A DNA stretch of 64,000 nt from Felis catus. Lineage: Eukaryota. The notes below the pieces were generated by a model. It was not told the origin of the DNA and did not search any database. It saw only the letters and a list, made by a program, of their open reading frames with translations. The stretch covers positions 1,612,001 to 1,676,000 of the forward strand of contig NC_058368.1 of the NCBI RefSeq assembly GCF_018350175.1, given 5' to 3'. The number at the start of each line of letters is the position of its first letter. The first letter of the stretch is position 1. This document shows positions 10,178 to 63,200 of the stretch, in pieces. A program made the translations under genes and the position numbers.

Positions 10178-10699
10178 GTAGTCCAGAGATGATCATTAAA
10201 AAATTGTCTCCCAACGTATACTTAATGTTTGAAATTCATTAATTACAGTGTCTACATTTCCCCTGCATGATCCCCATTAATCTTCAAAATTTAAAACTAA
10301 TGATATTAAACAATTATGAATTTCTCATTCATACTGTGCCTTATTAAATTTTACTACGAACCTGGTTCTGGGTAGTTGGGACACAGAGTTTCAGTTCTTA
10401 CCCTTTAAGGCACTCATCAGACAAGAGTACATTAAGAGCTTGGATAAGGTGTGCACAGCACGCTGTGGGAACACCTAATGCGGACATCAGGAAGGAGAAA
10501 AGGAAGGAGCCGAGGCCTCGAAGACAGGCATCTGATCTGAGTCACTTCACAGGGTGACCAAAGGGAGCCCATGATGACACGGAACACTGGCTTCCGAGCT
10601 CACAACATCTGCGTGGTGGCTCCAGCAGATATTTTATAATAACCTCGTCTCATCCCTGGGTAATCCTTCCGGCTGATTTCATCAGGCTTTACAGACTGT

Positions 10700-11420
10700 G
10701 GACTTCTTTCCTCCCAAGTACTCCAAGCAGAGGCGGCGCAACGGAGGCCCCCTCCTACCCCTTCCACGCCCGCTGCCCGCGCCTCTACCCGCGTCCGGCT
10801 CCCGGCGGCCACGCCCCTTTCCGCCCCCGCCCCTCCTCGCTCCTCTCCGGTTCCGCCCCCTCCTCCTCCTCCCCCGCCCTGGCGCGGAGGATTGTGGGAG
10901 CCGCTTCCTTGGATTCCGCGCGTGGCAACGGCTTGGCGCCGAGCTCTGGCCTACGCGGCTTAGTAGGTTGTCGAGAAAGCCGCGTCGTCCCCGCTAGACT
11001 CGCGGCCGCCCCGCTCCCCCTCACCGCGAGGTAGGAGAAGGGCCTCGGGACTAAGAGCGCCAGGGGCCGGCGCGGGCGGCGAGGCGCGGGGCCCGCGGCG
11101 GGCGGCTGTCCCGAGGCCGGCCCCTCGCGGCACGCCCCCGCGCGGGTCACCGCGCGCGGCGCGGGGAGGGGGCTTCGTTTGCGGAGGGGCTCTGCCCCGC
11201 CCACCGGCTCTTCCTCCCGTCCCGGCCAGTCCAGGCCTTTGCAGGCCCCGCAGAAACGCGGCGGTCGGTTCGCGGACGTGGATTCCCGTGGCGGGCGAGC
11301 TTGTGTTGCCCCCCTTAGCGGGGCGGGGCAGTGCCGCCCCGCGCCGGATGGCTGTCCCGAACCGCAGTCCCACGGCAGCCGGGAGATTCGAACCCAGATT
11401 AGACCTGGCTACTAGCTGTT
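10700..11420 (+). promoter_or_regulatory. IFT88: CpG-island promoter of IFT88
   Basis: Only strongly GC/CpG-rich stretch in the window. Several GC boxes (CCGCCC) at ~10770-10880, a ZNF143-like GGATTGTGGGA at 10889-10899 and an RFX half-site GGCAAC at 10924-10929. Lies ~6 kb upstream of the IFT88 ATG exon. Confidence 0.85.
10880..11030 (+). other. IFT88: Probable non-coding exon 1 (5' UTR) of IFT88; TSS approximate
   Basis: Donor-like GAG|GTAGGA at 11030/11031 inside the CpG island, no ATG in this segment, and the ATG exon has its own acceptor at 16786/16787. Confidence 0.6.
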
Positions 11421-11453
11421 GAGTTTCATAGCGGATGACACCGCGAACGTTCC

Positions 11454-11488
11454 TGTGTGTGTGTGCGTGTGTGTGTGTGTGTGTGTGT
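11454..11488. repeat. (GT)n microsatellite at the 3' edge of the CpG island
   Basis: About 17 TG units with one interruption. Confidence 0.9.
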
Positions 11489-12121
11489 TGTGCAAAGCTT
11501 TTGAGATTTTCTCATGCAAGGTTTAATTCGTGAAATAATAACACACCAGAAGGCGTAAACCTGTACTCAGTCGCACAAAGATGAAACAGAATTCCAGAGA
11601 CTTGAAGGATTGTTTTTCCAAGATTCTTTCTAGAGCTAAAATTCCACTTTTCCTTTTACCGGGTGGATTTTCTGGTTGTGAGCTTTTGCGGAACTACAGC
11701 AGGCATCTTGGATGTAGACTGTTCGGCATAGTCAATAGAAGAGCATCATAAAAAAAATAACTTCAACATTAAAAAAAAGGGGTGTTACTGGCATTTAATG
11801 TGTATCCCCAGATTGTTTCAACACGAATAGCTTGTTACGTGTGCACACTGCTTTTGAAAACCCTAAATTGTATTTGTTCTGCCACCCCCAGCTATATCAC
11901 CTATGGGTGCTTCACTTCATCTTTCCTGGCCTCACTTTCTACATCTTCAGAATTAATTTGCTCAATCGAGGTCTGTTCAGCAAAAGTCTCAGATGTAAAC
12001 CAATTCCAGTGTGGTTGCAACCCAGCAAGAAGGATATCTGCTTCTGAAAGTTGCTTGTTTTCATGACATGCATGTAAGCTGAACTGACCTAAATAGGGCT
12101 CATAATCAGCCCTCCTTTAGC

Positions 12122-12318: not shown

Positions 12319-12379
12319 TTAGCATTATCTAGTTAAAATATTTTCTATATCTTATACCAGTGACTTTTATTTAAAAAAA

Positions 12380-12686
12380 TTTTTTAAGTGTGTGTTTTTT
12401 TTTAAACTTTATTTATTTTGAAAGAGAGAGAGAGTGAGGGCGGGGTAGAGAGAGAGGGAGAGGAAGAATCCACACTGTCACTGTCGGCGCTGAACCCCAA
12501 GATGATGATTTGAGCGGAAATCCAAGAGTTGGAAACTTAACCAACTAAGCCACCCATGCACCCCTATTTTTAAAACTTTTATTTACTGAAGTATAGTCAA
12601 CATACATATTATATTAAAAAATTTTTTTTAATGTTTATTTTTGAGAGAAAGGGAGAGGGAGAGAGAGCACACATAAGCGGGGGAGG

Positions 12687-12726
<40 letters not shown>

Positions 12727-12845
12727 ATCTGAAGCAGGCTCCAGGTTCTGAGCTGTCAGCATAGAGACTCGAAATCACAGACTGTGCAAGATCATGACCT
12801 GGGCTGAAATCCGACGCCCAGCCAGCTGAACCACCCAGGCGCCCC
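12380..12845 (-). mobile_element. Two antisense Can-SINEs (~12380-12565 and ~12620-12845)
   Basis: Two reverse-complement heads, (GA)n tracts and T-tails. Confidence 0.85.
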
Positions 12846-13099
12846 GTGACACTTTCATTTGAAATTTGCATGCATTGCAGAATGATCACCGCAATCTAAT
12901 TACCATCTGTCACCAGAGTTACTACAATATTATGACTATGGTCTGTATGCTGTAATTTACATCCCTATGACTTATTTATTTTAGGACTGGGAATTTGTAT
13001 ACCAGTGACTTTTAATACCTTTGATGGTATTTGGAATAAACGTTTCTATCTGATATTTTTTCTCCCATAGTAGTGAATTTTCATCTTTAAAAAGTAATG

Positions 13100-16792: not shown

Positions 16793-16882
16793 ATGATGCA
16801 AAATGTACACCTGGCCCCAGAGACAGATGAAGATGATCTTTATTCTGGTTATAATGACTACAATCCAACCTATGACACTGAG
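16793..16882 (+). CDS. IFT88: IFT88 coding exon 1 (exon begins 16787): MMQNVHLAPETDEDDLYSGYNDYNPTYDTE
   Basis: Acceptor tttttcatag|GTACAAATG, donor GAG|gtaaaa. 90 nt coding, ends phase 0. Matches the recalled IFT88 N-terminus. Confidence 0.96.
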
Positions 16883-21113: not shown

Positions 21114-21180
21114 GTAAGTGCACGTTTTTTGTTGTGGTGAAAAATACATGACATAAACTTAGCCATCGTAACCATTTTTA

Positions 21181-24100
21181 TTTATTTTATCTTATTTTTG
21201 AATTCCGGTTAGTTAACAGTGTTATATTAGTTTCAGACATACAATATAGTGAATCAACAATTCCGTACATCACCTGGTGCTCATCACAGCAAGTGTACTC
21301 CTTAATCCCCGTCACCTATTGATCCCGTCCCCTTACCTCCCCTCCCGCCCTCCCCCCTCCCTGGTCACCATCAGTTTGTTCTCTATAGCTAAGAGACTGT
21401 TTCTTGAGTTTTCTCTTTTTTTCCCTTTGCTCTTTTATTTCTTCAATTCCACATATGAGTGAAATCCTACAGTATTTGTCTTTCTCTGACTGACTTATTT
21501 TGGATAGCATTTTATTCTCTAACTCCATCCACATCTTTGCAAATAGAAAGATTTCATTTCATTCCTTTGCAAATAGAAAGATTTTATTCCAATATCCTAT
21601 TATATACATATAAATATACATATATATACATATATGTATGTATACATACACACACACACACCCACACACTACATCTTTAATCCATTCATCAGTCGATGGA
21701 TACTTGGGCTGCTTCTGTAATTTGGCTATTGTAAATGATGCTGCTATAAACAAAGGAGTGCGTGTATCCCTTTGAATTAGTGTTTTTGTATCCTTTGGGT
21801 AAATACTCAGTAGTGCCATTGCTGGATCATAGAGTGGTTCTATTTTTAACTTTCTGAGGAACCTCCATACTGTTTTCCACAGTGATTGTACCAGTTTGCC
21901 TTCCCACCAACAATGCAAGAGAGTTCCTTTTTCTGCACATCTTTGCCCACACCTGTTGTTTCTGGGGTTGGTGATTTGAGCCATTCTGACAGGTGTGAGG
22001 TGATAGCTCATTGTAGTTTTGATTTGCATTTCCCTGATGGTAAGTGACAATGAGCATCTTTTCATGTGTCTGTTGGCCATCTGGATGTCTTCTTCGTAAA
22101 AATGTCTATTCATATCTTCTGCCTGTTTTTTAACTGGATTGTTTGTTGTATGGGTGTTGAGTTTTATAAGTTCTTTACATATTTTGGATACTAATCCTTT
22201 ATTTGATAAAACATTTGCAAATATTTTCTCCCATTCCATAGGTTGCCTTTAATTTTTTAGATTGTTTCCTTTGCTATGCAGAAGCTTTTTTTTTAAATGT
22301 TTGTTTATTTATTTTTGAGGGAGGGAGCAGGGGAGAGGCAGAGAGAGAGAGAGAGTGTCCCAAGCAGACTCTGCACTGAGAGTGAAGAGCCCGATGTGGG
22401 GCTTGAACTCACGAACTGCGAGATCATGCCCTGAGCTGAAGTCAGAGGCTCAACCAGCTGAGCCACAGGCACCCTGCTGAAGCTTTTTATTTTGATGAAG
22501 TCCCAACAGTTTATTTTTGCTTTAATTTCCCTTGCCTCAGGAGACCTATCTAGAAAAAAAGTTGCTATGGCTGATGCCAGAGAAAATAACTGCCTATGTT
22601 TTCTTCAAGGACTTTTAGGGTTTCAGGTCTCAACATTTAGGTCCTTAATCCATTTTGAGTTTATTTTTGTGTATGGTGAAAGAGGATGTTCCAGTTTCGT
22701 TCTTTTGCATGTGGCTGTCCAGTTTTCCCAACACCGTTTGTTGAACAGACCGTCTTTTTCCCATTGGCTATTCTTTCCTGCTCTGTTGAAGATGAATTGA
22801 TCATATAGTTGTGAGCTTGTTTCTGGGTTTTCTATTCTGTTCCACTGATCTATGTGTATATTTTTGTGCCAGTACCATACTGTTTTGATTACAGCAGCAT
22901 TATAATATAACTTCGTGTCTAGAATTGTGGTGCATCCAGCTTTCCTTTTCTTTTTCAGGGTTACTTTGACTGTTTGGAGTCTTTGGTACTTGCATACAAA
23001 TTTTAGGATTGTTTGCTTTAGTTCTATGAAAAATGCTGTTGGTATTTTGATAGGGTTTGCATTAAATGTGTAGATTACTTTGGGTCATATAGACATTTCA
23101 ACAATATTTATGCTTCCAAGCCGTGAGCATGGAATGTCTTTCCATTTCTTTGTGTCGCCTTCAGTTTCTTTCCTCAGTGTTTTATAGTTTTCAGAGTACA
23201 GGTCTCTCACCACTTTGGTTAGGTTTATTCCTAGGCATCTTATTATTTTTGGTGTAATTGTAAATGGGATTAGTTCCTTAATTTGTCTTTCTGATGTTTC
23301 ATTATGGGTAGTTAGAAACAACACATTTTTGTGTTGATTTTGTGGCCTGTGACTTTACTGATTTGTTTATCAGTTCTAGCAGTTTTTTTGGTGGTCTTTT
23401 GGGTTTTGTACATAGAGTATCATGTCATCTGCAGATAGTAAAAGTTTTACTTCTTCTTTGCTGATTTGGACACCTTTTATTTCTTTCTCTTTTCTGTTTG
23501 CTGTGGCTAGGATTTCCAGTACTATGTTAAATAAAAGTGGTGAGAGTGGACATCCCTGTCTTATTCCTACTGTAGAGGAAAAGCTCTCAGTTTTCCCGCA
23601 TTTAGGATGATGTTAGCTGTGGGTTTTTCACATGTGGCCTTTATTACATTGAGGTTTGTTGCCTCTAAACCTACTTTGTTGAGGGCTTTTGTCATGAATG
23701 GATGTTGTACTCTGTCAAATTCTTTTTCTGCATCTATTGAAATGATCATATGGTTTTTATACTTTCTCTTATTAATGTGATGTATCATGCTGACTGACTT
23801 GCAAATATTGGACCACTCTTGCAACTCGGGAATAAATCCCACTTGATTGTTGTGGATGGTTAGTTTAAATGTATTATTGGATTGCTTCTCGGCCTTTTGG
23901 CTAAGATCAAGTGTAGTTTAAATGTATTATTGGATTCAGTTTGCTACTATTTTGTTGAGTACTTTTGCATTTATGTTCATCAGAGATATTGGCCTGTAGT
24001 TCTCTCTTTTAGTGTTGCCTTTATCTGCTTTTAGAATCAGGATAATGCTGACCTCATAGAATGAATTGGGAAGTTTATCCTTCTGGTTCTATTTTTTGGA

Positions 24101-27100
24101 ATAGTTTGTGTTTTAAATATATGGTAGATTTTGCGTGTGAAGCCACTTAGTCCTGGAGTTCTGTTTGTTGGGAGTTTTTTCTTGGCTGGTTATTGGTCTA
24201 TTCAAATTTTCTATTTCTGACTGTTTTCAGTTTTGGTAACTTACATGTTCCTAGGAATTTCTTTTAGATTGTCCAATTTATTGACATATATCTTTTCGTA
24301 ATATTCCCTTATAATTGTATTTCTGTGGTATTGGTTGTTATTTCTCCTCTCTCATTTGTGATTTTATTGATTTGAGTCCTTTCTCTTTTTTTCTTTATAA
24401 GCCTGCTATGGTTTCATTGATCTGATCTATTGTTTTTTTAGTTTCTGTATCATTTAGTTCCGTTCTAATCTTTTTTTTTTTTTAATTTTTTTTTCAACGT
24501 TTATTTATTTTTGGGACAGAGAGAGACAGAGCATGAACGGGGGAGGGGCAGAGAGAGAGGGAGACACAGAATCGGAAACAGGCTCCAGGCTCTGAGCCAT
24601 CAGCCCAGAGCCCGACGCGGGGCTTGAACTCACGGACCGCGAGATCGTGACCTGGCTGAAGTCGGACGCTTAACCGACTGCGCCACCCAGGCGCCCCTCT
24701 AATCTTTATTATTACTTCCTTCTGCTGGTTTATTCTTTATTGTACTTTTCCTAGCTCCTTTAGGTGTAAGGTTAGGTTGTTTATTTGAGACTTTTCTTGC
24801 TTCTGCTTTTGAGAAAGAAAGTTCTTTTTGAAAAGAACTGCTTTTGCTACACCCCAAAGGTTTTGGACCCTTGTGTTTTCATTTCATTTGTTTCGACGTA
24901 CTTTTTTATTTCTTTTTTTATGGCCTGGTTGACCCATTCATTGTTTATATAACCTCCATGTAGTTATGGTCTTTCCAGATTTTTTCTTGTGGTTGGCTTC
25001 GACTTTTGTAGCATTGTGGTCAGAGAAGGTGCATGGAAGACTTCACTCTTCTTGAATTGGTTGAGAACTATTTTGTAGCCTAATACATGATCTGTTTTGG
25101 AGAATGTTCTGTGTATACTTGAAAAGAATGTGCACTCTGCTGTTTAGGATGGAATGTTCTGAATATATCTGTTAAATCCATCTGTTCTAGTCAGTCATTC
25201 AAAGCCATTGTTTTCTTGTTGATTTTCTGTTTATATAACCTACCCATTTATGTGAAGTCCTTTAATATTATTGTATTATTATTGATGAGTTCCTTTATGT
25301 TTGTTATTATTTTATGTATTTGGGTGCCTCCATTTGGGTGCATAAATATTTACAATTGTTGTATCTTCTTTTAGATTGTCCCCTTTATTATTAGATAGCG
25401 TCCTTCTTTGTCTCTTGTTATAGTCTTTGTTTTAAAGTCTAGTTTATCTGATATAAGCATTGCTACTCTGGCTTTCTTTTGACATCCATTTGCATGATAG
25501 ATGTTTCTTCATCACCTCACTTTCAATCTGCAGGTGGCTTTAGGTCTAAAATGAGTCTCTTGTAGGCACCATGTAGATGGGTCTTGTTTTTTTTTTTTAT
25601 CCATTCTGACACCCTGTGTCTTTTGATTGGAGTGTTTAGTCCATTTACATGCAAAGTAATTCTTGATAGGTATGTATGTACTGCTATTTTATTACTTGTT
25701 TTGTGATTGTTTCTGAAGATTTTCTCTGATCATTTATCTTCCTCTCTTTCATGGCTTACTGGTTTTCTTTAGTGATATATTGGGATTTCTTTCTCTTGTT
25801 TCTTTTCATTAGGTTTGTATATAACCTTTTCTGCATATAGCAGTCTGTATTAAGTTGTTGATCATTTGGGTTTGAATCCATTCTTTACTTCTGCCCTTTA
25901 CACGTTTTAAGTATATCGTTCATATTTTACGTCCTTTTATTTTGTGAGTTCTTTGACTGATTTTTTATAGAAATACTCATTTTTACTGCTTTTGTGTTTT
26001 CTAATTTCTTTCTGTTGCCTTTTGTTTTTCCTTTCCACTCAAAGAGGTCCCGTTAGTATTTCTTGCAGGGTTGGTTTAGTGGTCATCAGCTCGTTTAGTT
26101 TTGTTTGGGAAACTCTTTATCTCTTCTCCTATTCTGAATGATAGCCTTGCTGAATAGAGTATTCTTGGCTGCAGATTTTTCCCATCCAGCATTTTGACTA
26201 TATCATGCCACTCCCTTCTGGCTTGGAAAGTGTCTTCTGAAAAATCTCTAGCTAGCCTAATTGGTTTTCCCTTGTAAGTTATTGTCTTCTTTGTTTGCGG
26301 CCTTTAATATTTTTTCTTTATCACTATATTTGCCATCTTGATTACAATATGTTTTGGTGTGGGTCTGCTTTTGTCAGTTTTGATGGGGGTTTTCCGTGCC
26401 TCTTGGATCTGGATATCTGGTTCCTTCCCCAAATTAGGGAAACTTTCTGCTTTATTTCTTCAGATAAATTTTCTGCCCCCTTTTTACTTTCTTCTTCCTA
26501 TGGGACTCCTTTAATACAAATGTTATGTTTAATGGAGTCACTGAGCTTCTTAAGTCTATTATTGTTTTGCATCATTCTTTTTTCTCTCTTTTGTTTGGCT
26601 TGATTACTTTCTACTACTTTGTCTTCTAGGTCATTAATTTATTTTCTGTGCTTCTTCCAGTCTGCTGTTCCTTCTATCAAACGTGTTTCTCACTTCATTT
26701 ATTGTACCTTAAAAAAGAATTTTTTTTAATGTTTATTTTAGAGACAGAGAGTGCCAACGGGGAGAGGGGGCCGGTGGGGGGGGGGGGTGGGTAGGGACAG
26801 AGAGAGAGGGAGACACAGAATCCGAAGCAGGCTCCAGGCTCTAAACTGTCAGCACAGAGCCTGATGTGGGGCTCAAACCTGTGAACTGCAAGATCATGAC
26901 TTGAGCCAAAGTCAGATGCGTAACCGACTGAGCCACCCAGGTGCCCCTCATTTATTGTACCTTTTATCTCTGGTGTGTAATTTTTTATCTCATGTTAAGG
27001 GTCTCATTCATTTCTTATACCCTTTTCTGAAGCCTAGTTGAGTATCTTTATGATCATTGCTTTAAATTCTCTGTCAAGCATATGACTTATATCTGTTTTG

Positions 27101-29080
27101 CTTAGATCTCTGGCCATGGCCTTGTTCTGTTCTTTTATTCGAGATGAATTCCTCTGTGTTTTCATTTTGTCTAAGTCTCTGTGCCTGTTTCTGTGTGTTA
27201 GGAACGTCAGCTATGTCTCCTATTCTTGAGGGTAATGACCTTACAAAGAAGAGGTCCTGTAATGCCTTGTTGTGTAGCTTCCCTTGTTCCCCAGACCCGG
27301 ACACTTCTGGAAGTGTTTCCAGTGTGTGATGTGTGCACTTCCTGTTGTGTCCTGGCTGCTTTATCCTTCACACCAGTCATTTACAGAGGCTCTCTTTGCC
27401 TGTTGAGGTCAGTTTTTGTCCCTGGCCTGAATGTCGCGAGTTTTAACAAGGTGTGCTCTGCTCTGTTTCTAAAGTGAGACCTGACACTACCACGGCTGGA
27501 ATCGAGATTCTGCAAAACTCCCTGGTTGGTTCTAGCCTCCCTTGAAGCTAACTAAGGGCATGTCATTAAATTCTGGCCAATGGAATTTAGCAAATGTGTC
27601 CTGTATGATTTCTAGGAAATGTCCTTAAAGGGGAAAAATGTGTTCTGTCCCTCATCTTCCTTATTGTTGGCTGGAACATGACTGGAACCTGAACAGTCAT
27701 CTTGAAAAGCCAGGTATTGAGGATAGCGAAGAAATTATCCAATTCTGTCTTGTTTAAACCACTACTTTTTTGGTTTTCCTATCACTTGCAACCAAACCTA
27801 ATCTTCAGAATTAATATTGTTCTAGATCTTAAACATTTTCATCCCAAGAAAAAAAATGTTTTGTAACTATGTTTGGTGAGGAATGCTAACCAGACTGATG
27901 GTAGTTATCAGTATATACAAATATATATTGTCATGTTGTACTCTTGAAACATATATGATGTTATATGTCAATTATACCTCAATTAAAAAGAAAGAATAGA
28001 ACTAATAAGGATAAGGGCTGGCATAATGGAAAGAATGCTGGGGTGGGGGTCGGGAGAACAGGGACTTATCCAATTTACCGACTGTTTAAGTTTGGCCAAA
28101 TTTCTTAACTTTTTGGTGTCACTCATACCCTTATAAAATGGCACTATTGGTCTTTGTCCCTGCTTTAAATTTGAGTGTAAACTAAGGATTAAATGGAATT
28201 ATAGCTATTAAAAAAACAAAAAGACAAAAACAAACTCCCTGGTTGGGAGACCAGGGACATCAGGGAGTGTTGACAGGGGTTTGGGCCAGTCTTCTGGGGG
28301 GAGGGGTCTGTGGTGATGCATCTTACACAGCCTGACTACGAAATGCAGTTTTACAGGAGTGTGGGGGGCAAGGCTTAGTGTAGGAACGTTAAGTAGCAAA
28401 TGTCTGTGCTGTGCTGGTTCCTACAGGTGGCCCTATGTTTATGCCAACGGGCTAGGGAAGGAAATGGCAACAGCCGGTTTGTTTGTTCCCAGAAGGGCCT
28501 CTCTGTGAGCACTGTCTCTCTGGAGTACACTCTGAGATGACCGAATAACCTCCCCACTGTGTGCCCCAGGCACTCTTCAGATCACTCTTTCCATGCCTTG
28601 TGTCCACAGGTTGTTTACCCGCCTTCTCTCCAAGAACAGCGCAGTGTCCTCCCGGCTCTATCCTAGCCAAGCCTCCTAACTTTTAAGACTCCAGGCTTTA
28701 AGCCCTGCTGCTGCCAGAAGTCATGAAATTTGGCCCTTCTTGCTTTCCAAGCCAATTTCTATGGGAATTCGTTTTCCCCAAGCACTCCCCTCTGTGTTAG
28801 TCTGTCTCTTACCCTTCTCTGCCCCCACAGCTCCTTTCCCACAGCAGTGACCACTGTCCCTCCATCCCTCCATCCTCCCTTTCTCTCCCAAACTGCATCT
28901 CCACACTTCTGCCTTCTTTGATGTGGCCTCTTCCCTACCTTTAGTTGTGGAGCTTGTTCTGCTAGTTTTCAGGTCAGTTTCTGGAGTATTTAGGATGATT
29001 GGACAGTTATCTTGTGTTTGTGGGACAAAGTGAGCCTAGGGTCCTCTTACTTTGCCACCGTCTTCCTGAATCCCTCCCCT
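21181..29080 (-). mobile_element. Apparently full-length, inactivated carnivore L1, antisense to IFT88, with nested SINEs (~22285-22474, 24470-24697, 26720-26947), the U2 fragment and a 700-bp insert
   Basis: TSD TCGTAACCA(T/G)TTTTA at 21166-21180 and 29081-29095. G-rich 5' end AGGGGAGGGATTCAGGAAGACGG. ORF2 remnants ([27 protein letters not shown]) with stops and frameshifts. Confidence 0.9.
23881..23917 (+). pseudogene. RNU2: 3'-truncated, tailless U2 snRNA retropseudogene (U2 nt ~1-37)
   Basis: ATTGCTTCTCGGCCTTTTGGCTAAGATCAAGTGTAGT matches the U2 5' end with one mismatch. Flanked by the direct repeat TAGTTTAAATGTATTATTGG(ATT) at 23861-23883 and 23914-23936. Confidence 0.92.
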
Positions 29081-30600
29081 TCGTAACCAGTTTTAAATCA
29101 TGGTTCAGTATGTTAAATGTATTCTCATTCTTGTGAGACAGATCTCCAGGAGTTTTTCATCTCCCCAAACGGAAGCTCTATACCGATTAAACAGAACTGT
29201 GCATTCTCCCTCTAGCCTGTGGCAGCTTTCTACCTTCTGCCTTTAGGAATTCGACTACTCTAGGTACCTCATACAAGTGGAATTCTGCAGTCTTTGTCTT
29301 TTTTGTGACTGGCTTAGTTCACTTAGCATAATGTCTTCAAGGTTCATCTGTGTTGTAGGATGTGACAGGATTTCCTTCCTTGTTAAGGCTAATAATCCTG
29401 CGTGTGTGTATCATACTGTGTTCCATGAACACGTGGGTACTCCTACCTCTGGGCTCTTGTGAATAGTGCTGCTGTCAACATAGGTAGGCAGATGTGTCTT
29501 TGCAACCCTGTTTTTAGTTCTTCGGATGTATACCCAGAAGTCGGATTGCTGCGTCCCACAGTAATTCTGTTTTGAATGTTTTGAGGAACCTCCATACTGT
29601 TTCCACAGCAGTTGCACCATTTTATAATCCTGCTAACAGTAACAGGGTTCCAGTTTCTCTGCATCCTCATGAACACTTCCTTTCTATTGTTTTGATGGTA
29701 GCAGTTTTAATGGGCATGCAGTGATTCTTGATTTTGATTTCATTTCTCCTATGATTAGTGATGTTGAGTATCTTTTTGTAGGCTTCTTGGCCATTTGTAT
29801 ATCATCTTTGAGGAGATGTCTCTTCAAGTCCTTTGCCCATTTTTTAACTGGGCTATCCTGATTTTTTTGTTGTTGAGTTGTAGGTGTTGATATATTCTGG
29901 ATATTAACCCCTTATCAGATACATGATTTGCATATTATTGTCTCCCATTTTGTAGTTTGCCTTTGCGTCCTGTTGATTATGTCCTTTGACGCACGCAATT
30001 TTTTAAGTTTGATGTAGCCCCATTTTTATAGCTTCACTTTTGTTGCCTGTGCTTTGGGCATCAATTCCAACAAATCATTGCTCTGTCCAACGTTATGAAA
30101 TTTTTCTGCTATGCTTTCTGGGAGTTTTGTAGTTTTAGGTTTTATATTTAGACCTTTAATCCATTTTGAGTTAATTTTTTGTGTGTCGGCTCTAATTTCA
30201 TCCTTTTGCAACAGATATCCAGCTTTCCCAGCACCATATGTTGGAGAGACTGACCTTTCCCTATTATGTGGTCTTTGCATGCTTATGGAAGATCACTTGA
30301 CCATATGGAAGGTTTTTTTCCTGCACTTTTTATTCTGTCCCATTGGTCTGTTTGTGTTTATGCCAGTACCACACTGTTTACATATAGTAGCTTTGTAATC
30401 AAATGAATTTCAGGATGAATTTTCTATTTCTTAAAAAATGGACATTGATATTTTGGTAGCAATTGCATTGAATCTGTAGACTGCTTTGAGTAGTATTGAC
30501 ATCATAACAATAATTAAGTTTTCTAGTCCTTTAACGTGGGATGACTTTTTTATTTGTGTCTTCTTTAATTTCTTTCTGCAGTGTTTTGTAGCTTTCAGTA
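29081..30600 (-). mobile_element. Older L1MA/MB-like host element; its 3' tip lies at 21125-21180
   Basis: L1 3' UTR and ORF2 remnants that continue from the 21125-21180 piece across the TSD. Confidence 0.8.
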
Positions 30601-31086
30601 TATCCAGTAAGTGAATTTTAAAGTATTTTAGATCAAAAAGTTTCTTTATACTCTTGAGAATATAAATATTATTAGTTATGTAAGGCATTGGAATATATTT
30701 ACCTAAAATACTCATTGTTTAAAAAATATTTGCCTTTCTGATTTTTAAAGTTACATAAATATTGATCCTCAAAACACTGGCGCTTAGTTTACAAATTACT
30801 CCTTCCTTGGATTAATGCCCTTCAGTTAGTTAATTAATGTTTTACCAATGCATAAATTGCTAGAGTGATTTTTTCAATAGTATTAATAAAATTTATGTGT
30901 CATGCAAAGCATAGGCATCTGGCCTTCTGCAGTGCATGAAATCTGTCAAGTTTTTTTTTGTAGTTGAAAATAAACGAGGTTGGCACAAAGTAAAATAGCA
31001 AAGAACAGAAAGTTCTACCCCTAATGTTCTATGTCTAATATTCCTTTTTTTGAACTACTCTTCTCCACTTGCTCACTCCTATATAG

Positions 31087-31293
31087 CAGTGGATCTCAGT
31101 CCTCCTCTACAACTGTCCCAAGGGACATTTGGCCTGGAGATATTTTTGGTCGTAACAACTTGGGCGAGTGCCACTGGCATCTACTGGGTAGCAGGCAGAG
31201 ATGCTGCTAAACATTATATAATTCACAGGGTACCCCCCCCACCATAAACATTATGTGGTGAAAGGTCAGTGGTACCAAAGTTGAGCAACTCTG
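31087..31293. mobile_element. hAT-Charlie MITE (MER20-like)
   Basis: CAGTGGATCTCA...GGGACATTTGGC...GCCACTGGCATCTACTGGGTAG...GTTGAGCAACTCTG. Confidence 0.8.
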
Positions 31294-31499
31294 ATGTATA
31301 GCAACCTCTCTGCTTTACATGAAGTGTCCTTTTGCTTTCATCTTGCCTCACTTTGTTACTTTCTCTCTTTCCTCTCTGTCATGTGTATTATTTAGCAAAA
31401 ATAAGTTATTAGTATTAAACAACCACTTACAGTGGAAATTATCTTGTGAGTAGCCTTCCCATCACATTTATGTAAGTGAATTTAGTGTAGTTCCCTGCA

Positions 31500-32395
31500 A
31501 TGAGGTTTGCCAACTATACAGTTAGAGGACACAGAGGACTGTGTGCTCTACAAGACTATTTTCACTTTTTTTTTTCCCTCAAGTTTATTTATTTATTTTG
31601 AGAGCGAGAAAGAAAGCGTTCAGGAGGGAAAGGGGCAGAGAGAGAGAGAGAAAGTGCGAATCCCAAGCAGGCTCCCCGTGGTCAGCACAGAACCCGACAC
31701 AAGGCTTGATCTAATGAACCATGAGATCATGACCTGAGCTGAAATCGAGTCAGATGCTTAACTGATTGAGCCACCCAGCCATCCCTGGACAATTCTCATT
31801 TCTGATACCAACTGCAAGTTTAGGGGATTCCCAAAACCACCTTCAGGTTCAATTATTCTTTGAAAGGGCTCACAGAACTCACTGAAGGCTATTATACTCA
31901 TGACTTACTACAGGGGAAGGATACAGTTAAAATCTGCAAAGGAAAGTGATATATAGGACAGAGGCTGGGGGATCTAAACACAGAATATCTGGTCATTCTT
32001 ATCGTGTGGAATCCTGCATGACATTAACTCCTCCTGGCCCATCTGTGTGATGACAGTACTTACGGAAAGAATATTGCCAACTAGGGAAGACCACTCACAA
32101 CTTTGGTATCCAGGGTTTTTACTGGGACTCTATCACATATTGTTAACATGGCTGACGTTTAGTCTCCAGCCCCTTCTGGAAATTTGGACTAATACCTCTG
32201 GAAGTTAAAACTGATAATATGTTGTCCCAAAGCTCCCATCATAAATCACATTGTTCAGTTTTCTGGTGGCCAAAGCCCCTAGGCAAACAAAGAAATACAT
32301 ATCAGGCAGGACATTCCAAGGGCTTACAGATCACTCCCAGTAGCCAAGAGCAGAGCCAGACCTCTCCTTGGATAAAACTAATTCTTGACTACACA
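31500..32395. mobile_element. MER21-like LTR interrupted by an antisense Can-SINE (~31567-31786)
   Basis: CCACCTTCAGGTTC...CTCACAGAACTCACTGAAGGCTATTATACTC...GGAAGGATACAG motif. Confidence 0.65.
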
Positions 32396-34443
32396 TTTCA
32401 TAATCAGTGTTTTAATTTTAAGGTTACCTTCATCATGGAAAGAAAAATCATATGTTCTTTCAGTAAGCTGATGACTAGGCTATAAGCTTTTTGAAGAAGC
32501 TGACTGTCTTATACAGTGTTCTTTTCTTTGCTACTGTAGCTGCTTCATAAGTCTTTATTCCATGACTTAGTAAATAAACAAACATTTTCTTCAGTTTAGT
32601 GATTTCAGGTATCAGACATCAAGTGATAATTTTACCATGCTGGCCTTTCAGTGATGTTTAGAAGTGACGTTAGGGATCCTTATTTTATAGATGAGAAAAC
32701 TGAAGCCTAGAGAGGCCAAAAGTCTCACAGCTAGCCATAGCTGGGTTAGAGCTTAAGTCTCTTGACCTCCTATTGAATGGTATTTTCATCACAGTCTACT
32801 TATTATGTTAAACAGAGAGAAATTGTATAACTTCTATGTGAAAGGTATTAGTTTACTCGTGGGATAAAATTCTAACTAGTTCCAAAGGACTTTATAATCT
32901 TAGGGAGGGAAATAAAATGGATACATATGTTCAAAGCATAATGTAATAAGCATTGTACAAAAAAAAGTGCAAATTGCTATGGGATGTCAAAGAGATTACT
33001 TGTCACTAGTTGGGACGATCAGACAAGGATGCTTAGAATTTAAATTTACAGTTGAATATTAAAGGGTATGTACAATTAAGATTGATCTTAAGATATGGGA
33101 GGAAAGGCATTGCAGATGAGGGTGTAAAGCAAATAAAGGAAGAGACTGTTGAATCTACTGTATCTGAAGAGATCAGTCTTATGCTTAAGAAAAAAAAAGA
33201 ACATGGATTTAGTCATTAGTAAGTAGTTAAAAGAATAATAGTCTCTTTCCTTCAGTTTGTTCTCATGGAAAAAATTGCTGAGACCCATATCCTTTCTTTT
33301 CAGCATTTTCTAAGATATGTCAGATCAAGTTTGTTAATGATTTTGTTTAAGAGTTCTGTATTTTTACTGATTTTTTGGGTTGGGGAGGCTACTGGTTCAT
33401 TAGAAAGATGTCAAAATTTACACTATGTGGATTTATTTCTTTTTTTAGGGTTTTGCTTTATTTGGAGAAAAAATATTTAGAATTATTATATTTTCAGTAT
33501 AAATTGAGCCTTTTATTGTTTTTGAAATGTCCTATCTCTAGTAATACTGTTTGTCTCTTTTGCCAGATATTAATATGGCTACTCAAGCTCTCTTTTATCT
33601 AGCATTTGCATGATATGTCTTTCCCATCTCTTTACTTTCAACTTTTCCATCCATATATTTAAGATGTATTTCTCGTTAGCAGAATGTAACTGAGTTCTGT
33701 TTTTGAAATGCAGTCTGAGAATCTTAGTCTTTTAGTGAAGTATTTAGTCCATTTATATTTAATGAAATTACTGATTTGGTTTTAATTTATTGTTTTATTT
33801 GCTTTTTGTTTTTTCCTGCCTCTTTTATATATCATCTCTCTCATTTCTTGCCTTCTTTTGTTTGTTTTTTATTATTCCATTTCCCCCCAATGTTATCTTG
33901 GGAATTTACATTCTTTAACCATTCTTTTAGTGTTTTCCTAAAGATTACACTACTTATCTTCAAATTATTAAAGTCTAGTATAACTTTGTATTTTACTACT
34001 TCCTAGACAATGCCAGAATTTTACATTTTTTAGCAATTTTTCAGTTCTGTAATTTCTATTTATTCCTTTTTTATAGTTTCCAATTCTCCGCTGAAATTGT
34101 GTCTTGTCTTTTAATTCATTGATCATATTAAGAAGCATAGTTATGTTAAAGTCTGTATCTGACATTTCCATTATATATATCCTTTTCTGAGTTTTTGTTC
34201 TTTTGTTCTCTTGGCTTTTAGTTAGGTAGTCTTGCCTCCTGTAAGTCTGGTTGTTTTTTGTTGTTGTTTTTAAGATTTTCTTTTTAAGTAGTCTCTATAT
34301 CTAACACAGGGCTTAAACTTACAACCCTGAGAGCTGCACACTCTACTGACTCAGCCAGCCAGGCTCCCCTGTCTGGTTGTTTTTGATTCAGTGCCAGGCA
34401 GTGTAAATGAAAAAATTCAGAGATAATTCAAGGCCGTATGTCT

Positions 34444-36060
34444 GAGCTGTCCGGTATGATAACTACTAGCTACATGTGGCTATTTACATTTAAATGATTT
34501 AAAATAAAATGTAAAAATTCAGATCCTTATTATACCAAACACATTTCTTTTTTTATATATATATATGAAATTTATTGACAAATTGGTTTCCATACAACAC
34601 CCAGTGCTCATCCCAAAGGTGCCCTCCTCAATACCCATCACCCACCCTCTCCTCCCTCCCACCCCCCATCAACCCTCAGTTTGTTCTCAGTTTTTAAGAG
34701 TCTCTTATGCTTTGGCTCTCTCCCACTCTAACCTCTTTTTTTTTTTTTTCCTTCCCCTCCCCCATGGGTTCCTGTTAAGTTTCTCAGGATCCACATAAGA
34801 GTGAAACCATATGGTATCTGTCTTTCTCTGTATGGCTTATTTCACTTAGCATCACACTCTCCAGTTCCATCCATGTTGCTACAAAAGGCCATATTTCATT
34901 TTTTCTCATTGCCACGTAGTATTCCATTGTGTATATAAACCACAATTTCTTTATCCATTCATCAGTTGATGGACATTTAGGCTCTTTCCATAATTTGGCT
35001 ATTGTTGAGAGTGCTGCTATGAACATTGGGGTACAAGTGGCCCTATGCATCAGTACTCCTGTATCCCTTGGATAAATTCCTAGCAGTGCTATTGCTGGGT
35101 CATAGGGTAGGTCTATTTTTAATTTTCTGAGGAACCTCCACACTGCTTTCCAGAGCGGCTGCACCAATTTGCATTCCCACCAACAGTGCAAGAGGGTTCC
35201 CGTTTCTCCACATCCTCTCCAGCATCTATAGTCTCCTGATTTGTTCATTTTGGCCACTCTGACTGGCATGAGGTGATACCTGAGTGTGGTTTTGATTTGT
35301 ATTTCCCTGATAAGGAGCGACGCTGAACATCTTTTCATGTGCCTGTTGGCCATCCGGATGTCTTCTTTAGAAAAGTGTCTATTCATGTTTTCTGCCCATT
35401 TCTTCACTGGGTTATTTGTTTTTCGGGTGTGGAGTTTGGTGAGCTCTTTATAGATTTTGGATACTAGCCCTTTGTCCGATATGTCATTTGCGAATATCTT
35501 TTCCCATTCCGTTGGTTGCCTTTTAGTTTTGTTGGTTGTTTCCTTTGCTGTGCAGAAGCTTTTTATCTTCATAAGTTCCCAGTAATTCACTTTTGCTTTT
35601 AATTCCCTTGCCTTTGGGGATGTGTCGAGTAAGAGATTGCTACGGCTGAGGTCAGAGAGGTCTTTTCCTGCTTTCTCCTCTAAGATTTTGATGGTTTCCT
35701 GTCTCACATTTAGGTCCTTTATCCATTTTGAGTTTATTTTTGTGAATGGTGTGAGAAAGTGGTCTAGTTTCAACCTTCTGCATGTTGCTGTCCAGTTCTC
35801 CCAGCACCGTTTGTTAAAGACGCTGTCTTTTTTCTATTGGATGTTCTTTCCTGCTTTGTCAAAGATGAGTTGGCCATATGTTTGTGGGTCTAGTTCTCGG
35901 GTTTCTATTCTATTCCATTGGTCTATGTGTCTGTTTTTGTGCCATATACCAAACACATTTCAAATGCTCAACAGCCACATGTGGCTAATAGCTATCTTAT
36001 CAGACAGGGCAGATATAAAACATTTTCATCACTATAGGAAAGTTCTGTTGGATAGCACAG
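34444..36060. mobile_element. MER3-like hAT MITE split by the young L1
   Basis: Halves at ~34444-34547 and 35945-36060 (CTAGCTACATGTGGCTATT ... CAGCCACATGTGGCTAATAGCTA ... GAAAGTTCTGTTGGATAGCAC). Confidence 0.75.
34548..35944 (-). mobile_element. Young 5'-truncated felid L1 (ORF2 C-terminus, 3' UTR, tail)
   Basis: Perfect 17-bp TSD TATACCAAACACATTTC (34531-34547; 35945-35961). Open 329-codon ORF2 C-terminal frame (34784..35773). Confidence 0.95.
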
Positions 36061-37119
36061 CTCTAGATGATCTTATCTTTCTTTAGAGAATTTACTTTTG
36101 CAAATAGCCCTAGAGGCAGTAGGAGTCCTGGCTCACCCTAATTCAGTTAAGTTTGGGGTGATTCTAAATTGGACGTCGGTGTTTATGAGAGGTAGTATAC
36201 TTCTCATTTACTTTTCAATTGTAGAGTGTAGCCTTTAGAGGTCACAGTCTGAAGCCTGGAGGACTACCAGGGCTCCAGTGTTTTATCTCTTCAGACCTGT
36301 AAGTCTGTGGAAAGCTGTGTTCAGCTTCTCAGCCATGCCTCTGAATTGAGCAGATGCCTGTTGGAGAAAAGCAGGCTTAAATGCAGGAGTACCTCTCAAG
36401 CCTTCCCTTTTCCTTATCTTGGGACCTTGTAATTTTTCACTTCCTTCTTGGTTTTCTAACGTATTCAAATTGATTTTTCCTAAAAATATTTTTGTCCCCT
36501 GCTTTTTTAGTTGTTCTTATTGGGAAAGTTGTTTAAAACACAGTCCATCATAGCCAGAAGTAGAGCTCTTCTACTAACGATGTTTTAACCAAATACTTCA
36601 AACAAATATGCTTAACAACTAACATGCATAGAACATTTCCACCTACACGGCCCTATTTGATTCCAACTATAATCTTGTGATCAAGATATCCTTATTTCAA
36701 AGATAAGAAAATTTAGGTTCATAAAGATACGAATAAAAACAGCTGGTAGTAGGAGAGCTGAGAATCAAACCCAGATTCTCTGATGCCAAGTCGTATGTGT
36801 TTTGTTAGGCCTAGTGGCTGGCAGTAATAAGTATGCATAATGAATGATAGATACAACCATGAATACTAATCTTTCGTGTTGGTGCCTCAGGTCATTCTAA
36901 AGCCCCCTTTTTCCTTTAAAATGAATTCTAGAATAAGTCTCCCTCTTAATACTTTAAAATACCTAGGCCCCTTAATATTTAGGATAATTAAAGGGAAGTT
37001 ATCCTAAATATTATATACTACTTCTTTACTGATGAGTCTATATTTCCCATTGCTTTTTTAGGTTTCAATTGTGTAGCTTAATCTGAATTCCATTAATTAT
37101 GTCTTTTTTCCTCCCCAAG

Positions 37120-37176
37120 ATAACTGCTAAAATACCAAGCACAGCAGTTACTAGACCTGTAGCTACTGGATATGGG
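37120..37176 (+). CDS. IFT88: IFT88 coding exon 3: ITAKIPSTAVTRPVATGYG
   Basis: ctccccaag|ATA...GGG|gtaggt; 57 nt, phase 0-0. Confidence 0.95.
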
Positions 37177-41165: not shown

Positions 41166-41639
41166 TTACCTGACTGAATTTATAGTCAGATTCCACCAAA
41201 GAATATGCTTCTATAGACAAAGCTATACTATTAAACTTATTCCTGTATTTTTTTTAAAGTCCATTTGTAGAGAATTAAGTGAACTACCGTGTATTTGGAA
41301 ATATTCATAGTAAAATTTTATTTAGGTACTAATGTGCTTTCAGAGTATTGTGATATTTTGCTGGATGACAGTGGTAGCAAAATGACATTAGTGTTATTTT
41401 TGAAATTATTTGGGAGTACTGTGTTTGCTATAGTGGAGTCAGGATTTTTAAACTTCTTCCCATTGTTGGAAATATTCTCTAGAATTCCTATCTGGTAGTA
41501 GTCAATAATCATCATGATCATCATCTCTTTTATGGGGGCTTCAGTTTTCCTCACCTTAAGATAAAGTTTTCATTTGTCATAGGATCTGAAGAAAGGATCC
41601 ACTTTCTTTTAGGGATGATACTGTAATCTCATGGGTCTT

Positions 41640-41850
41640 TGAATGACCTTATTTGGGTTTAAATCCTAGCTCTGTAAACTAGCTGTGTGATTTTGGACAT
41701 AATACTTAACTTTCTAAACCTCAGTTTCCTTCTCAGTAAAATGAGAATAATGATAGTATTTATATCAAATGTTATTGTGAGGATTAAATGACATAATTAG
41801 GGAAGAGCATCTGGTTTAGTGTTAAATTACTAATTACTGTGCTCAGTGTG
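41640..41850 (+). mobile_element. MIR fragment
   Basis: MIR core CTGTGTGATTTTGGAC...CCTCAGTTTCCT...GTAAAATGAGAATAAT...GTGAGGATTAAATGA. Confidence 0.75.
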
Positions 41851-60249: not shown

Positions 60250-63200
60250 TGTTTTTGTTTTATTTTAATTGAGATATAATTTACATGTAACATTACATCA
60301 GTTTCAGGTATATAACATAATGATTTGAAATTTGTGTGTATTGCAAAATGATCACAATAAGTCTGGTTAACATTTGTCATTGTACATAGTTATGATTTTT
60401 TTTCTTACGATGAGAACTTTTGAGATCTTAGTAACTTTCAAACATGCAGTACTGTATTATTAACCATGATCACTATGCTATGTGTTATATCCCATGTCTT
60501 ACTTTATCTTATAAACTAGAAATTTGTACCTGTTGAGCCCCTTCATCCATTTCACACTCTTCCTACTTCCACCCTGGCAACCACCAGACTGTTCTCTGTA
60601 TCTGTGAGCTTGGGTTTTGTTTTTTAGTTTTCTAATTACTTTTCATGTTTTTCCTTCCTAGATGTAACTTATGTTTTCTGCATATTTTTATCATCTCTTA
60701 GATGTTTACCCATTCTGTTTCTTACTTGGAGTCCATTTGATTCCTTGGAATACATTGTCTTCCTGGTTTAATTTGTACTGGAGGCTTCACAGGTGATCCA
60801 TGATGTTTTGTTTTTATTGGTATTTCCAGTTGCCTGGCTCTCTTTTTTTGCATTGTTTGTTTCTGTTGAGGACTCAGGTTTTTCTTGGGAGTTCTCCCTT
60901 ACAGAATCTCTCTCTCTCTGCTCCATTTTCTTTTTTTTTTTTTTTTTTTTATTTAAAAAAAATTTTTTTTTTTTGTCAACGTTTATTTATTTTTGGGACA
61001 GAGAGAGACAGAGCATGAACAGGGGAGGGGCAGAGAGAGAGGGAGACACAGAATCGGAAACAGGCTCCAGGCTCCGAGCCATCAGCCCAGAGCCTGACGC
61101 GGGGCTCGAACTCCCAGACCGCGAGATCGTGACCTGGCTGAAGTCGGACGCTTAACCGACTGTGCCACCCAGGCGCCCCATCTGCTCCATTTTCTGTATG
61201 ATGGTTACTGTCCTGGCCTGGTGTTAAATGTCATCTTGGGGATTATGGTCATTTCTCTCTGCTTTTTCTGCATCTATTGAAATGATTGCATGGTTTTTAT
61301 CCTTTCTCTTTTTGATGTGATGTATCATGTTGATTGATTTGCGAATATTGAACCATCCTTGCAACCCAGGAATACATTCCACTTGAACATGGTGAATGAT
61401 TTTTTTTTAATGTTTGTTTATTTTTGAGAGAGAGAGAGAGGGAGAGAGAGAGAGAGAGAGAGAGACAGAGGGCGAGCAGGGGAGGGGCAGAGAGAAAGGG
61501 AGGCACAGAATCTGAAGCAGGCTCCAGGCTCCGAGCTGTGGGCACAGAGCCCATTGTGGGTCTTGAACCCACGAACTTCAAGATCATGACCTGAACTGAA
61601 GTCAGACTCTTAGCTGAGCCACCCAGGCATCCTAAATGATTTTTTACTGTGTTGTTGGATTGGGTTTGCTAATATCTTGCTGAAGATTTTTGCATCTATA
61701 TTCATCAGAGGTATCAGCCTGTACTTCTCTTTTTTTGTGATGTCTTTATCTCGTTTTGATATCAGGGTAATGCAGACCTCATAGAACAAATTTGGAAATT
61801 TTCCTTCATCTTCTATTTTTTGGAATAGATGTTGGTGATAAGGATAGATATTAACTCTTCTTTAAATGTTTGGTAGAATTCACCCGTGAAGCCATCTGGT
61901 CCAGAACCTTTGTTTGTTGGGAGTTTTTTGATTACTGATTCAATTTTGTTTGCTGGTAATTGGGCTGTTCAAATTTTGTTTCTTCCTGATTCAGTTTTGG
62001 GAGGTGCAGGTTTCTATGAATTTATCCATTTCTTTTAGGTTGTCCAACTCGTTGGCATATGATTTTTCATAATATTGTCTTAATCCTTTGTAGTTCTGTG
62101 GTGTTGGGTTGTTATTTCTCCTTTTTTCATTTCTGAATTTGTTTGAGTACTCTTTTTTTTTTTTCCTTAGGAGTCTGGCTAAAGGTTTATCAGTTTTATT
62201 GATCTTTTCAAAGAACTAGCTCCTAGTTTCATTGAACTGTTCTATTGTTTGTGTGTGTGTGTGTGTGCATTTTTTTGTTTTGTTTTTTTTTTTTTTAGTT
62301 TCTATTTCATTTATTTCTGCTCTAACCTTTATTATTTCCTTTCTTCTACTGGTTTTGGGTGTTGTTTGTTGTTCTTTTTTTTGGCTCCTTTAGGTGTAAG
62401 GTTAGGTTGTTTATTTGAGATTTTTCTTCAGGTAGGTCTGTATTCCTATAAACTTCCCTTTATAAACTTCTGTTGCTTCATCCCAAAAATTTTGGATCAT
62501 TTTGTTTTTATTTTTATTTATCTCCCTGTAGTTTTTGATTTCCTCTTTGATTTCTTGTTTGACCTATTCACTGTTTAGTAGCATGTTATTTAACCTGCAT
62601 GTATTTGTGTTCTTTCCAGATTTTTTTTCTTGTGGTTGATTTCTAATTTCATAGCACTGTGGTCAGAAAAGATGCATGGAATGACTTTGATCTTTTTGCA
62701 TTTGTGGAGACCTGTTTTATGGCGTAATATGTGATCTGTTGTGGAATATGTTCCATGTCACTTGAAAAGAATGTGTGTTCTGCTGTTTTAGGATGAATAT
62801 GTCTGTTAAGTCCATCTGGTCCAGTGTGTCATTCAAAGCCATTGTTTCCTTGTTGATTTTCTGTTTAGATGATCTGTCTGTTGATGTAATTACTATCAAT
62901 TATTTCTTTTTTATGTTTGTTATTAACTGTTTTATGTATTTGGGTACTTCTACGTTGGGTGCCTAAATATTTACAATTGTTATATCTTCTTTTTTTTTTA
63001 ATTTTTTTGTAATGTTTATTTATTTTTGAGACAGAGAGAGACAGAACATGAATGAGGGAGGGTCAGAGAGAGAGGGAGGCACAGAATCTGAAGCAGGCCC
63101 CAGGCTCTGAGCTGTCAGCACAGAGCCTGACACGGGGCTCGAACTCACCGACCATGAGATCATGACCTGAGCCGAAGTCGGTCGCTTAACCGACTGAGCC

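What the first reader, a model, noticed from the sequence alone, without database searches (positions are those of the whole stretch)
27515..28246. Orphan ~700-bp A-tailed, TSD-flanked insert made of ancient repeats, nested inside a younger L1
Seen: the 15-bp direct repeat AAACTCCCTGGTTGG (27515-27529 and 28232-28246) brackets 27530-28231. The insert ends in ATTAAA (28188-28193) followed 16 nt later by an A-rich tail (28210-28231), and is oriented opposite to the host L1. By recall of consensus motifs it is a mosaic of an old LTR piece (MLT1/LTR16-like, ~27530-27800), an L1M 3' tip (~27820-27990) and a MIR piece (~28020-28200). Established: these families stopped moving long before carnivore-specific L1s existed, so they could not have inserted here one by one. 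Inference: a single polyadenylated RNA (3' UTR or lncRNA end, or an orphan L1 3' transduction) was retrocopied from another locus. It would record an otherwise unannotated transcript that uses a MIR-derived poly(A) signal, and repeat masking would hide it completely.
Basis: partly seen in the sequence, partly recalled or inferred. Interest (0 to 1): 0.7.

Follow-up and report, generated by a model that had tools for sequence, protein, structure and literature searches.

The report
Old L1-copied fragment, source not found
A 700-base patch of old repeat debris was copied from an RNA and pasted by LINE-1 machinery into a dead LINE-1 inside an intron of the cilia gene IFT88; this is a real but familiar kind of event, and its source locus was not found.

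Summary
An exact 15-bp repeat (27515-27529, 28232-28246) brackets 702 bp that end in ATTAAA, 16 nt and an 18/22-A tail. The insert sits in the 5'UTR of a full-length, minus-strand L1 with its own target-site duplication, in an IFT88 intron. In one genomic run the flanks are covered by many L1-family contigs, some matching both sides, while the non-L1 parts of the insert are single-copy. So it is a true insertion, not part of the L1 family. The ATTAAA lies in a block shared with a MIR-like copy in the window. No source locus at 80% identity or more was seen in that run, and two RNA runs showed no reads over the last 180 bases; both tests are weak. Best reading: L1-mediated copy of a polyadenylated RNA (about 0.83), more likely an orphan 3' transduction (0.5) than the end of a cellular mRNA or lncRNA (0.33). 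Known kind of event; low interest.

The parts
27515..27529 (+). 5' copy of target-site duplication (15 bp exact; may be 16 bp if the preceding A is counted)
27530..27816 (+). 3' part of an old MaLR-type LTR (MLT1-like, name recalled), 5'-truncated, sense to the insert; contains a CCAAT-box word at 27571-27582
   Evidence: short matches from contigs of X1 and X20, e.g. 71 bp with 9 differences at 27561-27631; no relative in window; family name from recall
27807..27816 (+). candidate 5' TSD of the nested L1 tip (9 of 10 identical to 27998-28007); tentative
   Evidence: 119 of 20,000 random left flanks do as well
27824..27997 (+). 5'-truncated L1 3' tip with its own ATTAAA (27982) and short A-run; high-copy family different from the host's 3' end
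   Evidence: 71% identity to L1 3' end at 60255-60428; depth up to 5051 in X1 and 1167 in X20; only a gapped match to host 3' end
28008..28209 (+). decayed MIR piece, sense
   Evidence: local alignment to MIR-like copy 41591-41828, 2 of 1000 shuffles reach score; not detected by profile
28188..28193 (+). ATTAAA poly(A) signal inside an 11-nt block shared with the MIR-like copy, 16 nt before the tail
   Evidence: PMC2553571 passages (MIRb carries ATTAAA on its plus strand)
28210..28231 (+). decayed poly(A) tail, 18 of 22 A
28232..28246 (+). 3' copy of target-site duplication
21181..29081 (-). host full-length dead L1 (about 6.4 kb without nested inserts); ORF1 start at about 27165, insert 350 bp upstream of it in the 5'UTR
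   Evidence: ORF1 Pfam PF02994 and PF17490, RVT_1, translation, ORF2 alignments
21167..21180 (+). TSD of the host L1, left copy (13 of 14 identical to 29082-29095)
29082..29095 (+). TSD of the host L1, right copy
21116..37175 (+). IFT88 intron holding the host L1 and the insert (bounds approximate); insert is sense to the gene
   Evidence: plus-strand exons near 16800, 21053, 37180, 38306 and on; exon 45246-45359 matches IFT88 in PDB 8bd7_A, E 3.4e-05

Best explanation
An orphan L1 3' transduction. Shown: a 702-bp sequence with poly(A) signal, tail and 15-bp TSD was inserted into the 5'UTR of a dead full-length L1, antisense to it and sense to IFT88. Inferred: at another locus an LTR remnant, a short L1 tip and a MIR lay side by side; RNA polymerase II read through from an active L1 upstream (past its weak signal, past the tip's ATTAAA) and was cleaved and polyadenylated 16 nt behind the MIR's ATTAAA; L1 ORF2p nicked the target, primed on the tail, and reverse transcription stopped after about 700 nt, before reaching the source L1. 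The insert begins upstream of the LTR's CCAAT word, so the RNA did not start at this LTR's promoter (inference). It has since decayed and probably does nothing.
For: TSD, tail, signal spacing. Flanks draw L1-family depth (122-1128 left of 27485, 25-193 right of 28250) while 27620-27709 and 28025-28249 are single-copy (8.68, 8.83) in X1; 8 of the 15 joints shown (26 in all) link left to right flank across the insert. About 670 of 680 bp are repeat-derived and no Pfam family in three sense frames, as expected of intergenic or intronic DNA. No reads over 28070-28249 in oligo-dT (X24) or single-cell (X21) runs, so no commonly expressed parent 3' end was seen. Orphan transductions are known in the germline: 48 among 1,019 humans (PMC12350158 passages); germline orphan insertions of this size range and PAS 10-30 bp before 79% of transduction ends (PMC13009371 passages); 3' transductions occur in dogs (PMC13141329 passages).
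Against: No source locus was found: no second contig at 80% or more covers the unique parts in X1, and no source L1 can be pointed to. The hallmarks do not separate a transduction from a host-gene retrocopy. In the same human data monoexonic processed pseudogenes (216) outnumber orphan transductions (48). The nick site reads TTTT/GC on the bottom strand, not the canonical TTTT/AA (consensus recalled). The joints across the insert are 'between: not known', so exact contiguity over one TSD copy is not shown.
Confidence: 0.5

Rival explanations
1. 5'-truncated retrocopy of the 3' end of a cellular mRNA or lncRNA that uses the MIR ATTAAA as its poly(A) signal, mobilised in trans by L1.
For: Same hallmarks. 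MIR plus-strand ATTAAA gives real poly(A) sites in human genes (PMC2553571 passages). Monoexonic processed pseudogenes are commoner than orphan transductions. Retrocopies of non-coding genes are documented and under-searched (PMC7692494 abstract and Introduction). All three pieces are sense to the RNA.
Against: Almost wholly repeat-derived, unusual for an mRNA 3'UTR (inference). No parent-like reads in 12.9 million records each of X21 and X24, and no parent contig in X1; these were only about 1-2% of the runs, tissue unknown, human-like reads filtered.
Confidence: 0.33
2. Composite event: the L1 tip, its A-run, the MIR piece and the second tail are a partnered 3' transduction of a tip-type L1, and the LTR piece was added at the 5' end by template switching.
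For: The order L1 3' end, A-run, other sequence, signal, tail, TSD is the pattern used to call partnered transductions (PMC12350158 methods passage). The tip family is abundant, not ancient.
Against: The tip has a candidate TSD of its own (9 of 10; 119 of 20,000 by chance), which places it as an older insertion between LTR end and MIR. Run X20 holds the tip family (depth 1167) but none of the host-type 5'UTR (depth 0), so the tip family probably predates the host and was likely dead when the insert landed.
Confidence: 0.08
3. DNA-level capture or duplication of a genomic fragment at a staggered break (no RNA step); the A-rich end was already in the donor.
For: No splice junction can be shown; nick site is non-canonical; tail is impure.
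Against: Tail plus signal at the right spacing directly against the TSD is unlikely by chance (0.08% and 4.1% of positions); TSD length matches the SINE and L1 TSDs in the window.
Confidence: 0.07
4. The mosaic is old native IFT88 intron and the two flanks are separate L1 insertions, the repeat being chance.
For: No second copy found; 8 of 500 simulations give some 15-mer repeat.
Against: One TSD encloses the whole L1; contigs of other L1 copies match both flanks in order; a lone L1 5' end without a 3' end is not a product of target-primed reverse transcription (established knowledge).
Confidence: 0.02

Closest known systems
Orphan L1 3' transductions (PMC12350158, PMC13009371; passages read)
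   Same: Non-L1 sequence with poly(A) signal 10-30 nt before a tail, TSD, no source-L1 body, several hundred bp.
   Different: Old and decayed rather than polymorphic; source not mapped; made wholly of repeats, which pipelines that demand 25 bp of unmasked sequence or 70% L1 content discard (PMC13141329 passages).
L1-mediated processed pseudogenes, including monoexonic and non-coding retrocopies (PMC12350158 passages; PMC7692494 abstract and Introduction)
   Same: TSD, tail, 5' truncation, insertion in trans.
   Different: No exon, ORF remnant or parent gene identified here.
MIR-derived polyadenylation sites (PMC2553571; passages read)
   Same: ATTAAA on the plus strand of a MIR, upstream of an apparent cleavage site.
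   Different: Use is inferred from a fossil tail, not from cDNA or 3'-end reads.
Canine L1 3' transductions, many 'parentless' (PMC13141329; passages read)
   Same: Carnivore L1 machinery moving flanking DNA.
   Different: Those are partnered, recent and dimorphic, with the source sequence mapped at 95% or more.

Membership tests
L1-mediated (TPRT) insertion | Target-site duplication flanking the insert | tested here: met
   15 bp exact
L1-mediated (TPRT) insertion | 3' poly(A) tract next to the TSD | tested here: met
   18 of 22 A, decayed
L1-mediated (TPRT) insertion | L1 endonuclease-type nick site | tested here: inconclusive
   Bottom strand reads TTTT/GC if the TSD is taken as 16 bp; fits a looser pyrimidine/purine pattern, not TTTT/AA (consensus recalled)
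L1-mediated (TPRT) insertion | Empty site exists (related target sequence without the insert) | tested here: met
   At family level: L1 contigs cover both flanks, not the insert; 8 of 15 listed joints cross it; exact spacing not given
Orphan 3' transduction | Poly(A) signal 10-30 nt before the tail | tested here: met
   ATTAAA ends 16 nt before tail
Orphan 3' transduction | No body of the mobilising L1 at the 5' end of the insert | tested here: met
   5' end is LTR-like; the internal L1 tip differs from host 3' end and has a candidate TSD of its own
Orphan 3' transduction | Insert maps to a source locus outside exons | tested here: inconclusive
   No second contig at 80% or more over unique parts in X1; run holds 1893 million letters, human-like contigs filtered, sensitivity near 80% unknown; no genome held
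Orphan 3' transduction | Full-length L1 upstream of the source, same strand | not testable with these tools
   Needs the source locus
Processed pseudogene / non-coding retrocopy | Aligns to exons of a parent gene; introns removed | not testable with these tools
   No parent, no annotation available
Processed pseudogene / non-coding retrocopy | Remnant of a coding frame (for mRNA parents reaching the CDS) | tested here: not met
   0 Pfam families in 3 of 3 sense frames; does not exclude a UTR-only copy
Processed pseudogene / non-coding retrocopy | Parent RNA polyadenylated at the same position | tested here: inconclusive
   No reads over 28070-28249 in X21 or X24; about 1-2% of each run read
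MIR-derived poly(A) site | Hexamer lies in MIR-homologous sequence, plus strand | tested here: met
   Shared 11-nt block with MIR-like copy, 2 of 1000 shuffles; 1 of 3 copies tested gave this
MIR-derived poly(A) site | Site used by transcripts today | tested here: inconclusive
   Only pile of read ends was at 27989 in X24, within the high-copy L1 tip

The most novel reading that the evidence does not exclude
The insert transplanted a working MIR poly(A) signal from a germline transcript that is now lost or strongly diverged into an early IFT88 intron, in sense; in some tissue (testis, ciliated cells) of cat-family animals it acts as an intronic cleavage site that yields a short IFT88 RNA lacking the TPR exons. 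It would then be both the only record of a vanished transcript and a lineage-specific regulator of a core cilia gene. The milder form (fossil of an unannotated lncRNA or 3'UTR, no function) has a probability near 0.3 and would deserve about 0.4.
Probability: 0.04. Interest if true: 0.6.

Novelty: new member of a known kind. Interest (0 to 1): 0.24.

Why it matters
Little on its own. It shows that repeats annotated as three ancient elements inside a younger L1 can be one later RNA-mediated insertion, a class that transduction pipelines discard when the moved DNA is fully masked (PMC13141329 passages). Such inserts can mislead nesting-based dating of repeat families, and a genome-wide search for 'old repeats inside young repeats with TSD and tail' would count ancient transductions and non-coding retrocopies. 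If the parent proves to be a gene end, the insert dates the use of a MIR poly(A) site.

Tried and rejected
No genome is held, so the decisive BLASTN could not be run. In-window searches for a parent: only the L1 tip matched. Earlier findings by sequence, by relatives and by words: nothing. Metagenome scans for an empty-site word and for host ORF1 relatives, meant to fetch an intact 5'UTR: 0 loci; 195 pattern matches, none confirmed. Viral contigs and plasmids: nothing, as expected and without weight. Profile from window MIR-like copies did not detect the MIR piece; one of its three seeds (near 4588) may not be a MIR. Run X20 (share 0.04) was laid in the hope of a parent in another species: it gave only L1-tip and short LTR matches (longest 71 bp of a 430-bp contig), read as other family copies. 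A 27-aa N-terminal exon found nothing in PDB; a later exon did. Rejected: insert as part of the host L1 family; LTR-initiated full-length transcript (insert includes the CCAAT word, inference). Rfam: no RNA family in the insert. Supplements of the papers were not opened.

Full report
Observation. An exact 15-bp direct repeat lies at 27515-27529 and 28232-28246. In 500 third-order Markov simulations of the surrounding 2131 bp, 8 gave any exact 15-mer repeat. The 22 bases before the second copy hold 18 A; 49 of 64,000 window positions are preceded by so many. ATTAAA at 28188-28193 ends 16 nt before this tail; 4.1% of positions have AATAAA or ATTAAA 10-30 nt upstream. Three more ATTAAA lie in the insert. 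Together these are the marks of an L1-made insertion and well beyond chance.

Setting. The insert lies in a full-length dead L1 on the minus strand, 21181-29081, about 6.4 kb once three SINEs, a U2 fragment and this insert are removed. The L1 has its own TSD (13 of 14 identical), ORF1 domains PF02994 and PF17490 and reverse-transcriptase remnants (2 of 6 host frames tested). ORF1 starts near 27165, so the insert is 350 bp upstream of it, in the 5'UTR. The host differs by 18-23% substitutions from other L1 copies in the window (5 comparisons). The L1 sits in an intron of a plus-strand gene whose exon at 45246-45359 matches IFT88 (PDB 8bd7_A, E 3.4e-05; other exons located with recalled motifs). 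The insert is thus antisense to the L1 and sense to IFT88. The genome is probably of the cat family (SINE type recalled; a 'feline metagenome' run holds half the words; unchecked notes).

The three pieces. The L1 tip (27824-27996) is 71% like another L1 3' end in the window and only loosely like the host's 3' end. It is flanked by a 9-of-10 repeat (27807-27816, 27998-28007) that 119 of 20,000 random flanks match as well, so it is tentatively an independent older insertion between the LTR end and the MIR. But run X20, from an organism with depth 0 on the host-type 5'UTR, also holds the tip family (depth 1167), so the tip family probably predates the host. The MIR piece aligns to a MIR-like copy at 41591-41828 with a score reached by 2 of 1000 shuffles; two other copies gave nothing (185 and 508 of 1000), nor did a small profile. 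The ATTAAA lies in an 11-nt block shared with that copy, and MIRb is reported to carry ATTAAA and AATAAA on its plus strand and to supply poly(A) sites (PMC2553571, passages). The LTR piece has no relative in the window but draws short matches from both X1 and X20; the name MLT1 is my recall. No Pfam family in 3 of 3 sense frames, no Rfam family.

Is it an insertion into one L1? No genome is held, so I used public runs. Of 24 runs listed, 14 of the same organism, from 9 studies, hold 0.93-1.00 of the insert's words; these are the best holders, so they do not show fixation. I laid 4 of the 24 on 27215-28546 at 80% likeness. In X1 the left flank has depth 122-1128 up to 27484 and the right flank 25-193 from 28250, from many L1 copies, while 27620-27709 and 28025-28249 stay at 8.68 and 8.83, the depths of the two contigs that span the left and right junctions. 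Of 15 joints shown (26 in all), 8 link left to right flank across the insert, the closest 27487 to 28275; the letters between are not given, so contiguity over exactly one TSD copy is not shown. The insert is therefore not part of the host family, and the flanks are one element.

The parent was not found. No second contig covers the unique parts in X1. A near-identical parent should also have broken the contigs at the junctions, and it did not. This makes a young, highly similar parent unlikely but does not exclude an old one: X1 holds 1893 million letters, short of a whole mammalian genome; human-like contigs are filtered without notice; and sensitivity near 80% is unknown. Age is loosely bounded. 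Among window SINEs, an exact TSD of 14 bp or more survives in 3 of 5 copies at 95% or more identity to a young copy, 4 of 9 at 79-88% (one 59-bp partial hit left out) and 0 of 10 at 69-77% (crude finder). With a decayed tail and a perfect TSD, the insert fits the middle class, so a parent could be 80-90% alike. In RNA, the oligo-dT run X24 shows depth 1-2 of plus-strand RNA over 27575-27799, which fits IFT88 pre-mRNA, and neither X24 nor the single-cell run X21 has a read over 28070-28249. No parent 3' end and no cleavage at this ATTAAA were seen, but only about 1-2% of each run was read, tissues are unknown and there is no positive control.

Mechanism. Shown: insertion with TSD, tail and signal into an L1 5'UTR. 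Inferred: an RNA running through LTR, tip and MIR at another locus was cleaved behind the MIR's ATTAAA, and L1 ORF2p copied its last 700 nt. The insert starts upstream of the LTR's CCAAT word, so the RNA began further up and the copy is 5'-truncated. Two sources fit. An orphan 3' transduction (0.5) fits the wholly repeat-derived content and the lack of parent RNA; such events are known in the germline (48 in 1,019 humans, PMC12350158 passages), have a signal 10-30 bp before 274 of 349 ends (PMC13009371 passages), and L1 transduction occurs in dogs (PMC13141329 passages). A truncated copy of an mRNA or lncRNA end (0.33) has the higher base rate (216 monoexonic pseudogenes in the same human set), and non-coding retrocopies are documented (PMC7692494 abstract and Introduction). 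The split between the two is my judgement, not a measurement. A template-switch composite (0.08), a DNA-level copy (0.07) and native intron with two L1s (0.02) are less likely.

Comparison and verdict. It works like an orphan transduction or UTR-only retrocopy; membership in either needs the source locus, which these tools did not give. Seven literature searches (listings only, apart from the five papers named) showed no paper on this locus; the library lacks most subscription journals. Earlier notes on this genome describe other retrocopies nested in repeats (unchecked) and none on this insert. The finding is a real, neatly spotted, new member of a known kind. The claim that it records an unannotated transcript is unproven. 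Interest 0.24.

Noticed in passing
window 23861-23936: A 5' fragment of U2 snRNA (about 35-38 nt from 23881, plus strand, no tail) flanked by an exact direct repeat of about 18-23 nt, inserted in ORF2 of the same host L1; looks like a 3'-truncated 'tailless' U2 retropseudogene (class recalled). Rfam hit RF00004.
   Followed up: partly
window 21140-21180 and 29082-30600: The host L1 itself interrupts an older minus-strand L1 whose 3' end continues on both sides of the host's TSD, giving three levels of nesting (old L1, host L1, this insert).
   Followed up: partly
window 22286-22474, 24471-24698, 26711-26963: Three SINEs of different ages (70%, 97-98% and 80% like other young copies) are nested in the host L1, the last with a 16-bp exact TSD.
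   Followed up: partly
window 12353-13014 and 34531-35961: Exact 17-bp direct repeats 645 and 1414 bp apart; the second brackets a 5'-truncated minus-strand L1 with a 349-codon open stretch; the first was not examined.
   Followed up: no
window 27730-27745: Against my recollection of this LTR family the copy seems to lack an internal stretch of several dozen bases near here and its own poly(A) signal looks mutated; could be a deletion or a splice in the source RNA. Untested.
   Followed up: no
window 10500-11600: GC-rich CpG island, probably the IFT88 promoter.
   Followed up: no
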